NCBI RefSeq assembly: GCF_044324875.1
Contig: NZ_CP172185.1
From: Escherichia coli
GTDB taxonomy: Bacteria > Pseudomonadota > Gammaproteobacteria > Enterobacterales > Enterobacteriaceae
Length of the DNA: 64,000 bases
Reading direction: 5' to 3' (one strand)
The notes beneath the pieces are model-generated. The model was not told the DNA's origin, made no database searches, and saw nothing but the letters and a program-made list of their open reading frames with translations. Made by a program: the position numbers and the translations under genes. This document shows positions 40,624 through 40,880 of the stretch, in pieces. Each line of letters opens with the position of its first letter. The stretch's first letter is position 1.

Positions 40624-40880
40624 GTATCCCGCCTTATCCGACCTACCAAACCTGCACGTTACCCCGTAGGCCAGATAAGACGCGCTAGCGTCGCATCTGG
40701 CATCTGCCCCCGTATGCCGTGTCGGATGCGGCGTGAACGCCTTATCCGACCTACCAAACCTGCACGTTAGCCCTTCGTAGGCCAGATAAGGCGCGCCCGC
40801 GTCGCATCTGGCATCTGCACCCAAATACCGTGTCGGATGCGGCGTGAACGCCTTATCCGACCTACAAAACCTGCACGTTA
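40624..40880. repeat. REP/BIME cluster (about three units) downstream of rsmC
   Basis: Repeated gcgtcgcatctggcatctgc...gtgtcggatgcggcgtgaacgccttatccgacctac...aacctgcacgtta units. Confidence 0.85.

What the first reader, a model, noticed from the sequence alone, without database searches (positions are those of the whole stretch)
40624..40880. REP/BIME cluster between rsmC and the tRNA-Leu operon
About three palindromic units sit directly upstream of the tRNA-Leu operon and could influence rsmC termination or the tRNA operon promoter context.
Basis: seen in the sequence. Interest (0 to 1): 0.2.

Follow-up and report, generated by a model that had tools for sequence, protein, structure and literature searches.

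The report
Ordinary REP (BIME-2) array after rsmC
The stretch is a standard E. coli cluster of repetitive extragenic palindromes (a BIME-2 array) in the tail of the rsmC transcript; it varies in copy number between strains as such arrays are known to do, so it is real but ordinary.

Summary
Window 40624-40881 lies between the rsmC stop (40623) and three tRNA-Leu(CAG) genes (41002-41324). It is a REP array: half a y unit, then two z2-S-y doublets. That is 4 complete palindromes plus a half, not "about three". It is far beyond chance: 13 REP-tail matches against 0.05 expected, a 111-bp tandem unit x2.3, and an RNA fold z of -6.1.

It meets the tested defining features of BIME-2: y and z2 units, alternating orientation, GTAG/CTAC feet, tandem copies, and copy number that varies between strains. 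Across 5,426 complete E. coli genomes the locus carries 1, 2, 3 or 4.5 REPs. The window's allele is in 135 genomes.

The leuQPV promoter and the conserved 15-mer I read as its FIS site (40891-40969) lie outside the array. They are conserved across genera, while the slot upstream always holds some hairpin, which in Pluralibacter is an intrinsic terminator.

The most likely role is a 3'-UTR hairpin barrier: it stabilises rsmC mRNA, and the published REP325 precedent (not this sequence) suggests partly Rho-dependent attenuation of read-through before the tRNA promoter. Gyrase binding is possible. The Rfam naRNA4 hits are on the strand antisense to rsmC and only reflect REP family membership.

Already known kind; low interest.

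The parts
39592..40623 (+). rsmC coding sequence (16S rRNA m2G1207 methyltransferase); stop TAA at 40621-40623. The array lies in its 3' untranslated region.
   Evidence: ORF list; RefSeq annotation of the identical locus in strain FDAARGOS_497 and of K-12.
40630..40646 (+). 3' half of a y-type REP in iREP orientation, ending in CTAC (CGCCTTATCCGACCTAC). Its 5' arm is missing. Other alleles have a complete y unit here. The gap fits a 30-bp deletion between CGC microhomologies (inferred).
   Evidence: Sequence; motif hit at 40633-40646; comparison with alleles L003, L005 and K-12. This junction is present in 135 of 5,426 genomes.
40647..40665 (+). Tail-to-tail linker 1 (CAAACCTGCACGTTACCCC). 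C-rich and G-poor on the rsmC strand (9 C, 2 G).
   Evidence: Direct repeat family D2; composition.
40666..40701 (+). z2-type REP number 1, GTAG foot at 40666-40669, imperfect palindrome.
   Evidence: Inverted repeat I8; motif hit at 40666-40679 on the minus strand; covered by Rfam RF02564 full-length match; alignment to a REP325 unit.
40702..40720 (+). Head-to-head short (S) linker 1. It forms the loop of the predicted z2-y long hairpin.
   Evidence: Sequence and composition; RNA fold.
40721..40754 (+). y-type REP number 1 in iREP orientation (ends CTAC).
   Evidence: Inverted repeat I10; motif hit at 40741-40754; 30 of 32 identical to the crystallised E. coli y REP quoted in PMC3479197.
40755..40776 (+). 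Tail-to-tail linker 2 (CAAACCTGCACGTTAGCCCTTC).
   Evidence: Direct repeat family D2; composition.
40777..40812 (+). z2-type REP number 2.
   Evidence: Inverted repeat I9; motif hit at 40777-40790 on the minus strand; Rfam match 40780-40862.
40813..40831 (+). Head-to-head short (S) linker 2. It is a sequence variant of linker 1.
40832..40865 (+). y-type REP number 2 in iREP orientation. Its CTAC foot ends at about -104 relative to the inferred leuQPV start site.
   Evidence: Inverted repeat I11; motif hit at 40852-40865.
40866..40881 (+). Third, partial copy of the tail linker (AAAACCTGCACGTTAG); the promoter-proximal end of the array.
   Evidence: Direct repeat family D2, third copy; end of the TRF array.
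40891..40905 (+). NOT part of the array. A conserved 15-mer, GGCCATTTTTCCAGC, centred 71 bp upstream of the inferred start. I read it as the FIS site of the leuV/leuQPV promoter. It marks where cross-genus conservation begins.
   Evidence: Cross-genus alignment. The position of the FIS site (-71) is recalled from Ross et al. 1999 (reference seen; the paper is not held), so the assignment is inferred.
40933..40969 (+). NOT part of the array. leuQPV (leuV) promoter: -35 TTGACG 40933-40938, -10 TAGAAT 40955-40960, GC-rich discriminator, inferred start G at 40969.
   Evidence: Promoter scan, 10 of 12 matches; invariant across genera. The start site is inferred from the spacing and from the recalled GTP/UTP start.

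Best explanation
WHAT IT IS (shown). A BIME-2-type array of repetitive extragenic palindromes in the 3' untranslated region of rsmC. Its layout is [half y]-l-[z2-S-y]-l-[z2-S-y]-l'. It is one allele of a locus that changes copy number within E. coli, with 1, 2, 3 or 4.5 REPs.

HOW THE ALLELES AROSE (inferred). The alleles look like gain or loss of whole ~110-bp doublets, plus small deletions between microhomologies that remove one REP or half of one. This could happen by recombination or slippage between repeats, or through the REP-associated transposase TnpA-REP.

HOW IT WORKS (inferred from anatomy, comparison and published work on sister arrays).
1. rsmC transcripts run into the array because no intrinsic terminator precedes it.
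2. Each z2-S-y doublet folds into a long imperfect hairpin.
3. These hairpins block 3'-to-5' exonucleases and so define and stabilise the rsmC mRNA 3' end.
4. By analogy with REP325, the array may also cause partial, partly Rho-dependent attenuation. The C-rich, G-poor linkers on the rsmC strand (37 C to 14 G) are a composition compatible with Rho loading, but this is weak support. The effect would be that few polymerases read through into the FIS site and promoter of the strongly expressed leuQPV tRNA operon.
5. At the DNA level the y units are probably gyrase binding and cleavage sites, as in other BIME-2 arrays.

The copy-number differences are probably close to neutral.
For: IDENTITY
- TRF: period 111, 2.3 copies.
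- Hairpins and direct repeats.
- GTAG/CTAC motif 13 observed against 0.05 expected.
- Full-length Rfam RF02564 matches at 75.2 and 65.1 bits, gathering score 59.5. That model is built on the 77-nt Y-linker-Z2 unit of REP325.
- The y unit is 30 of 32 identical to the crystallised y REP.
- A stem position differs from the window's other array in a compensatory way: GCCGG..CCGGC against GTCGG..CCGAC.
- The published BIME-2 definition (z2 plus y, short S linker, tandem copies, number variable between strains) is matched.

POLYMORPHISM
- Spacer lengths are 189/197/199 (1 REP), 267 (K-12, 2 REPs), 290/300/308 (3 REPs) and 378 (this window).
- An evenly spaced sample of 39 genomes gives about 31% with 1 REP, 33% with 2 and 33% with 3.
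- The window allele is in 135 of 5,426 genomes.
- A y-l-z2 junction is in 3,140 of 5,426 genomes.

MECHANISM
- No terminator-like site on the rsmC strand.
- Fold of -113.4 kcal/mol, z = -6.1, with two doublet hairpins.
- The slot between the rsmC stop and the conserved promoter block holds a hairpin in every genus examined. Pluralibacter has a stem plus T-tract. Citrobacter koseri and C. sedlakii have their own REPs.
- REP325 was shown to be a partly Rho-dependent attenuator and upstream-mRNA stabiliser, and REP-separated tandem gene pairs are biased toward upstream expression.
- Gyrase cleavage sites are enriched in BIME-2 arrays, mainly in y units.
Against: - There are no transcript 3'-end, half-life or Rho-inhibition data for this locus.
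- Harris et al. stress that REP effects depend on context and that terminal REPs do not generally lengthen half-lives.
- An unvalidated RNA-seq call in K-12 (AC4606, 4,606,472-4,606,555, rsmC strand) covers the segment from just past the z2 REP to the leuQ -35. Some RNA therefore exists beyond the REPs.
- The hairpin z-scores for the other genera are modest, -1.3 to -3.7 with mononucleotide shuffles.
- The linker C-richness is not shared by the window's other BIME-2 array and may be chance.
- The locus is not mentioned in the text held from the gyrase Topo-seq supplements, one file of which was cut when stored.
- Strains with a single degenerate REP (L008) are common, so several units are clearly not required.
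Confidence: 0.6

Rival explanations
1. A purely selfish or neutral repeat. On this view the array is a REPIN/BIME population maintained by TnpA-REP (RAYT) activity and local recombination. It sits here only because intergenic DNA after a gene tolerates it, and it has no locus-specific effect on rsmC or leuQPV.
For: - Copy number drifts from 1 to 4.5 units among strains.
- Units are lost by microhomology deletions: the half y here, and a y missing in K-12.
- One common allele keeps only a degenerate REP (L008).
- TnpA-REP cleaves and recombines BIMEs in vitro, and variable tandem number per locus is a general property.
Against: - Every one of the nine E. coli alleles and four other Escherichia genomes read keeps at least one y hairpin in the slot.
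- Unrelated genera keep a different hairpin or terminator there. This suggests selection for some 3' structure.
- A sister array has measured effects on both neighbouring genes.
Confidence: 0.3
2. A DNA-level topological element. On this view the BIME-2 array mainly acts as a transcription-independent strong gyrase site or cruciform-prone insulator. It would set local supercoiling just upstream of the highly transcribed leuQPV promoter.
For: - Gyrase cleavage sites are over-represented in BIME-2 arrays, preferentially in y units, and the signal persists or rises with rifampicin.
- The array has two full y units and ends about 100 bp upstream of a strong stable-RNA promoter.
Against: - Only a subset of BIME-2 arrays carries cleavage sites.
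- This locus is not named in the text held from the supplements, one file of which was cut when stored.
- Strains with one REP have the same promoter.
- Other genera replace the REP with a simple RNA-type terminator hairpin, which would not bind gyrase.
Confidence: 0.15
3. A gene for naRNA4-like nucleoid-associated noncoding RNAs. On this view the two Rfam RF02564 matches are functional HU-binding RNAs that help condense the chromosome.
For: There are two full-length matches above the gathering score, at 75.2 and 65.1 bits against 59.5.
Against: - The matches are on the minus strand, antisense to rsmC. The rsmC strand scores only 44 bits.
- Genuine REP325 units score 95-111 bits and lie sense to the upstream gene that transcribes them.
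- No promoter-like site was found that would drive the minus strand into the array.
- The model simply describes a Y-linker-Z2 doublet, so any BIME-2 array matches it, as the yjjV-yjjW array does.
- The nucleoid role itself was not reproduced in a 2026 preprint.
Confidence: 0.03
4. An upstream promoter element. On this view the array modulates FIS- or UP-dependent activation of the leuQPV promoter, for example through extra FIS sites or DNA bending.
For: The array ends only about 10 bp upstream of the conserved 15-mer that I read as the FIS site.
Against: - Cross-genus conservation starts exactly at that 15-mer and is absent upstream of it.
- Array length varies by 189 bp between strains with an unchanged promoter block.
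- As I recall it, Ross et al. 1999 reported a single FIS site at -71. The paper could not be read.
Confidence: 0.05

Closest known systems
BIME-2 arrays of E. coli (Bachellier/Gilson nomenclature; Ton-Hoang et al. 2012, PMC3333891)
   Same: - It has y and z2 REPs in alternating orientation.
- Doublets are joined head-to-head by a short S linker and flanked by tail-to-tail linkers.
- It has GTAG/CTAC feet, is extragenic and is tandemly repeated.
- Copy number differs between strains.
   Different: - The first y unit is truncated to its 3' half.
- The S linker is 19 nt, against 14 nt in REP325 and in the window's other array.
- The two doublets are only 92% alike and carry distinct linker variants.
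- The period is 111 bp rather than about 100 bp.
REP325 / naRNA1-6 between yjdM and yjdN (Qian et al. 2015, PMC4550694; Harris et al. 2026 preprint)
   Same: - It uses the same Y-linker-Z2 building block (72-75 of 92 aligned positions identical).
- It lies between two co-directional transcription units, in the 3' UTR of the upstream gene.
- It passes the Rfam RF02564 threshold.
   Different: - It has two doublets rather than six.
- Relative to the upstream gene the doublets are inverted: the rsmC transcript carries z2-S-y, not y-S-z2.
- The downstream unit has its own very strong promoter and is a tRNA operon.
- No experimental data exist for this locus.
Intrinsic terminator after rsmC in Pluralibacter (and the hairpins in Klebsiella indica, Kosakonia and Citrobacter amalonaticus)
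   Same: It occupies the same slot, between the rsmC stop and the conserved FIS site and promoter block, and it is a stable hairpin on the rsmC strand.
   Different: The E. coli REPs have no T-tract and failed the terminator scan. They are members of a genome-wide repeat family, not a unique sequence.
BIME-1 / RIB / RIP elements (y plus z1 with an IHF site in a long L linker)
   Same: They are made of REP units and are extragenic.
   Different: The partner of y here is the long z2 type. Linkers are short. No IHF consensus is present in the array. The doublet is in tandem copies, whereas BIME-1 occurs as single copies.

Membership tests
BIME-2 | Built from y-type and z2-type REPs | tested here: met
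   - The y units are 30 of 32 identical to the crystallised E. coli y REP.
- Each z2-S-y doublet matches the whole 77-position Rfam model of the REP325 Y-linker-Z2 unit above threshold.
BIME-2 | REP and iREP alternate in inverse orientation, head-to-head across a short S linker and tail-to-tail across flanking linkers | tested here: met
   The motif hits alternate in strand: + at 40633, - at 40666, + at 40741, - at 40777 and + at 40852. The S linkers are 19 nt and the tail linkers 19-22 nt.
BIME-2 | Conserved GTAG tetranucleotide at the foot of an imperfect palindrome | tested here: met
   GTAG or CTAC is present at all five units. The hairpin arms are 14-15 nt and 80-86% complementary (I8-I11).
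BIME-2 | Multiple tandem copies, with number variable between strains at a given locus | tested here: met
   There are 2.3 tandem copies here. Across strains the locus carries 1, 2, 3 or 4.5 REPs.
BIME-2 | Extragenic position | tested here: met
   It lies between the rsmC stop (40623) and the first tRNA-Leu gene (41002). The only ORF across it is a 217-aa antisense ORF at 40243-40896 that mostly overlaps rsmC. I take this ORF to be spurious.
BIME-2 | Bound and cleaved by DNA gyrase in vivo | not testable with these tools
   This is known for a subset of BIME-2 arrays. This locus was not found in the supplement text that is held.
naRNA4 (Rfam RF02564) | Sequence and structure score at or above the curated gathering score | tested here: met
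   The minus strand scores 75.2 and 65.1 bits against a threshold of 59.5.
naRNA4 (Rfam RF02564) | The matching strand is the one transcribed from the upstream gene, as in REP325 | tested here: not met
   - The matches are antisense to rsmC, and the rsmC strand scores 44 bits.
- REP325 units are sense to yjdM.
- No minus-strand promoter-like site was found upstream of the array.
- Actual transcription could not be measured.
naRNA4 (Rfam RF02564) | HU binding and nucleoid condensation | not testable with these tools
   The role is itself disputed: deletion or overexpression of REP325 did not change nucleoid volume.
Intrinsic (Rho-independent) terminator | G+C-rich hairpin immediately followed by a T-run | tested here: not met
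   There is no terminator-like site on the + strand in 40300-41450. The same scan does find one in the equivalent slot of Pluralibacter.
BIME-1 / RIB (IHF-binding REP pair) | y plus z1 pair separated by a long L linker carrying an IHF site, single copy | tested here: not met
   No WATCAANNNNTTR match falls in the array. The linkers are 19-22 nt. The doublet is in tandem copies.
REPs that lower translation of the upstream gene (REP within 15 nt of the stop codon) | A complete REP hairpin starts no more than 15 nt after the stop codon | tested here: not met
   - The rule is as quoted.
- Here the first complete hairpin (z2) starts 43 nt after the stop.
- The element at +7 is only the 3' arm of a y unit.
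- In the other alleles the y stem starts about 20 nt after the stop.

The most novel reading that the evidence does not exclude
The copy-number polymorphism at this array (1 to 4.5 REPs) could be a functional dial. More doublets would give tighter attenuation of rsmC read-through and/or more gyrase loading just upstream of the leuQPV promoter. Strains would then differ in rsmC mRNA stability and in supply of the major tRNA-Leu(CAG), without any change in coding or promoter sequence.
Probability: 0.07. Interest if true: 0.4.

Novelty: already known. Interest (0 to 1): 0.1.

Why it matters
It matters little as a discovery. REP/BIME-2 arrays, their gyrase binding, their roles at mRNA 3' ends and their strain-to-strain copy-number variation are all described in the literature.

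There are two modest points of value:
- The locus is a clean natural allelic series (1, 2, 3 and 4.5 REPs, each common or at least recurrent among 5,426 genomes) placed directly between a housekeeping gene and one of the strongest tRNA promoters. That makes it a convenient test bed for the recent 'dual terminator-stabiliser' model of REPs.
- The cross-genus comparison shows REPs occupying the same slot as an ordinary terminator hairpin. This is simple comparative support for an RNA 3'-end function.

It also serves as a caution: Rfam naRNA4 hits should not be read as sRNA genes.

Tried and rejected
1. naRNA4 gene. Rejected: the hits are antisense to rsmC, no promoter was found, and the model is generic for BIME-2 arrays.
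2. Intrinsic terminator for rsmC. None was found on the + strand.
3. IHF-binding BIME-1. No IHF consensus is present.
4. Translation-control REP class (within 15 nt of the stop). The distance rule is not met.
5. Protein-coding reading. The 217-aa minus-strand ORF at 40243-40896 is antisense to rsmC and runs through the palindromes. I treated it as spurious and did not search it.
6. Gyrase evidence for this locus in the Topo-seq supplements. rsmC, leuQ and leuV do not appear in the text that is held.
7. Ross et al. 1999 on leuV and FIS could not be read. The -71 site and the G/U start are therefore from memory, cross-checked only against spacing and conservation.
8. A junction query meant to count alleles with two z2 units did not discriminate, because y-l-z2 also occurs in 2- and 3-REP alleles. 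It gives only the number of genomes with that junction (3,140).
9. The supplement of Ton-Hoang 2012 listing MG1655 BIME-2 loci is not held, and the RefSeq K-12 record shown carries no REP features. The official REP number of this locus was therefore not confirmed.
10. The first literature search for leuV and FIS returned mostly irrelevant 'Leuven'/'FISH' papers.

Full report
WHAT IS THERE

The window is Escherichia coli. The 611 bases around the finding are 100% identical to strain FDAARGOS_497. In that record the genes are holD, rsmC, three tRNA-Leu genes, yjjZ and fhuF. In the window, rsmC is the 343-aa ORF at 39592-40623 on the + strand. ARAGORN finds three tRNA-Leu(CAG) genes at 41002-41088, 41117-41203 and 41238-41324.

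Reading the sequence with the repeat tools gives this layout:
- 40630-40646: the 3' half of a y-type REP.
- 40647-40665: a tail linker.
- 40666-40701: a z2-type REP.
- 40702-40720: a short head-to-head linker.
- 40721-40754: a y REP.
- 40755-40776: a tail linker.
- 40777-40812: a second z2 REP.
- 40813-40831: a short linker.
- 40832-40865: a second y REP.
- 40866-40881: a last partial tail linker.

So there are four complete palindromes and one half, not 'about three'.

IS IT MORE THAN CHANCE?

Yes.
- Tandem Repeats Finder reports a 111-bp unit, 2.3 copies, 92% matches, score 423.
- The REP tail motif CTTATCYGRCCTAC (one mismatch allowed) occurs 13 times in the window against 0.05 expected from shuffles. 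Five of the 13 are here, with strands alternating + - + - +.
- The rsmC-strand RNA folds to -113.4 kcal/mol, against -82.4 +/- 5.1 for shuffles (z = -6.1). The fold has two long hairpins, each formed by one z2-S-y doublet.

WHAT KIND OF REPEAT?

Ton-Hoang et al. define BIME-2 as z2 plus y REPs in inverse orientation across a short S linker. The doublets are flanked by s, l or r sequences, occur in tandem copies and vary in number between strains. All of the sequence features are met.
- The y units are 30 of 32 identical to the E. coli y REP crystallised with TnpA-REP.
- Each doublet matches the entire Rfam RF02564 model at 75.2 and 65.1 bits, against a gathering score of 59.5. That model describes the 77-nt 'Y-linker-Z2' unit of REP325.
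- Compared with the window's other array, the y stem carries a compensatory pair change (GCCGG...CCGGC against GTCGG...CCGAC), and the z2 stem shows the T:A to A:T swap typical of REP variation.
- There is no IHF consensus, so it is not a BIME-1/RIB element.

5,425 of 5,426 complete E. coli genomes have a match to the query, and every full-locus row of the 40-row spread sample is annotated rsmC plus tRNA-Leu. The spacer length varies. I fetched one example of each length class and read it:
- 189, 197 and 199 bp: a single y REP. O157:H7 is one example. The 199-bp allele, seen in ST131-type strains, has a degenerate y.
- 267 bp: K-12, with y-l-z2.
- 290, 300 and 308 bp: y-l-z2-S-y.
- 378 bp: this window.

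In an evenly spaced sample of 39 genomes down the ranking, about 31% have one REP, 33% have two and 33% have three. The window's characteristic junction (stop codon directly followed by the half y) is in 135 of 5,426 genomes. The y-l-z2 junction is in 3,140.

The window's two doublets correspond to two different variants seen singly elsewhere: the first resembles the K-12 z2 and linker, and the second the 300-bp allele. The truncated first y equals the full unit minus 30 bp lying between two CGC triplets. K-12 lacks the distal y, apparently through a deletion between short TACC repeats (these deletion mechanisms are inferred). This is the behaviour already described for BIME-2 arrays.

THE PROMOTER SIDE

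The scan finds TTGACG-16-TAGAAT at 40933-40960, matching 10 of 12. From the spacing, and from my recollection of Ross et al. 1999, the start is G40969. As I recall it, that paper reported a G then U start and a FIS site centred at -71. The reference is listed but the paper is not held. On that reading, the conserved 15-mer GGCCATTTTTCCAGC at 40891-40905 is centred exactly at -71.

An alignment of seven Escherichia alleles and species with Citrobacter, Pluralibacter, Klebsiella indica, Kosakonia and Enterobacter sequences was built from the loci found with an exact promoter pattern. It shows near-invariant sequence from that 15-mer through the discriminator, and unrelated sequence upstream of it. 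The array therefore ends at about -88, outside every conserved promoter element. Adding or removing 189 bp of REPs leaves the promoter block unchanged. I find no support for a promoter-context role.

THE rsmC SIDE

There is no intrinsic-terminator-like site on the rsmC strand between the stop codon and the tRNA genes. The REP doublets are the only strong structures. The unpaired linkers are C-rich and G-poor on this strand (37 C to 14 G). That composition is compatible with Rho loading, but this is weak evidence because the other array lacks the bias.

Across genera the rsmC to leuQPV arrangement is kept, and the slot always contains a hairpin:
- Pluralibacter has a 9-bp G+C stem followed by TTTTCTTTT, which passes the terminator scan.
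- Citrobacter amalonaticus has a stem followed by four or five T.
- Klebsiella indica and Kosakonia have other stems.
- C. koseri and C. sedlakii have Citrobacter-type REPs.
- Four Escherichia species have y or y-z2-y.

Experimentally, the sister array REP325 attenuates transcription into the downstream gene about 8- to 10-fold, partly through Rho, and stabilises the upstream mRNA. REP-separated tandem gene pairs are also biased toward upstream expression genome-wide.

My best reading is that the array is the RNA 3'-end structure of rsmC, acting as an exonuclease barrier plus a partial attenuator that shields the tRNA promoter. Its identity is certain. The mechanism is inferred, at roughly 0.5-0.6.

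One caution applies. An unvalidated RNA-seq segment in K-12 (AC4606) lies just beyond the z2 REP and runs up to the leuQ -35. Termination at the REPs is therefore not complete, or there is processing.

OTHER READINGS

- Gyrase. BIME-2 y units are preferred cleavage sites in vivo. A DNA-level role is possible, but it could not be tested and the locus is not named in the supplement text that is held.
- naRNA4. The Rfam matches are on the minus strand, antisense to rsmC. Genuine REP325 units score 95-111 bits and are sense to yjdM. No promoter-like site was found that would drive the minus strand into the array. The proposed nucleoid role was not reproduced in a 2026 preprint. I reject this reading as a gene call.
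- Neutral selfish repeat. This remains a serious alternative for the copy-number differences.

VERDICT

This is a real, correctly located and correctly named feature of a thoroughly known kind. Interest is low (0.1). The only mildly useful aspects are the natural allelic series next to a strong tRNA promoter and the positional equivalence with a terminator hairpin in other genera.

Noticed in passing
window 32549-33035: There is a second, larger BIME-2 array: five z2-S-y doublets with a period of about 100 bp. It gives five Rfam naRNA4 matches (68-79 bits, minus strand). It fills the 518-bp spacer between the convergent genes yjjV and yjjW.
   Followed up: partly
window 41309 (third tRNA-Leu gene, 41238-41324): The third tRNA-Leu(CAG) copy has T where the other two copies have C, just after the T-loop (GTTCAAGTT against GTTCAAGTC). 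This turns a T-stem G-C pair into G-U. Its Rfam score is 42.7 bits against 48.5 for the other two copies, whereas all three K-12 copies score 48.5.
   Followed up: no
K-12 NC_000913 4,606,472-4,606,555 (minus strand); equivalent to roughly window 40866-40932: A published table of RNA-seq-predicted sRNAs lists an 84-nt 'AC4606' in the rsmC 3' UTR. It covers the stretch from just after the z2 REP to just before the leuQ -35, and so overlaps the putative FIS site. It is unvalidated, and could be read-through, a processing product or noise.
   Followed up: partly
L017 and L024 (Citrobacter amalonaticus), L016 (Citrobacter MAG): rsmC-leuQPV spacer: In these Citrobacter genomes the spacer holds two copies of the hairpin ACGGCCATGNGAATGGCCGT. 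They bracket about 170 bp of unrelated A/T-rich sequence that contains further inverted repeats. It looks like a small insertion flanked by a duplicated terminator hairpin, possibly a miniature mobile element.
   Followed up: no
window 41347-41374: A 14-bp unit (TTTCATCCCTGATT) is repeated twice in tandem just downstream of the last tRNA-Leu gene, near the 3' end of yjjZ on the opposite strand.
   Followed up: no
window 40893: The window has C where K-12, O157 and the 199-bp (L008) allele have A (GGCC against GGAC). The base lies at a non-consensus position of the conserved 15-mer taken to be the FIS site of the leuQPV promoter. E. whittamii also has C.
   Followed up: no
window 775-894 (minus strand): The threonine operon leader (Rfam RF00506, 121 bits) is present, so the window spans the conventional origin of the E. 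coli map. The distance from here to rsmC is about 4.5 kb longer than in K-12, which implies an insertion somewhere in between.
   Followed up: no
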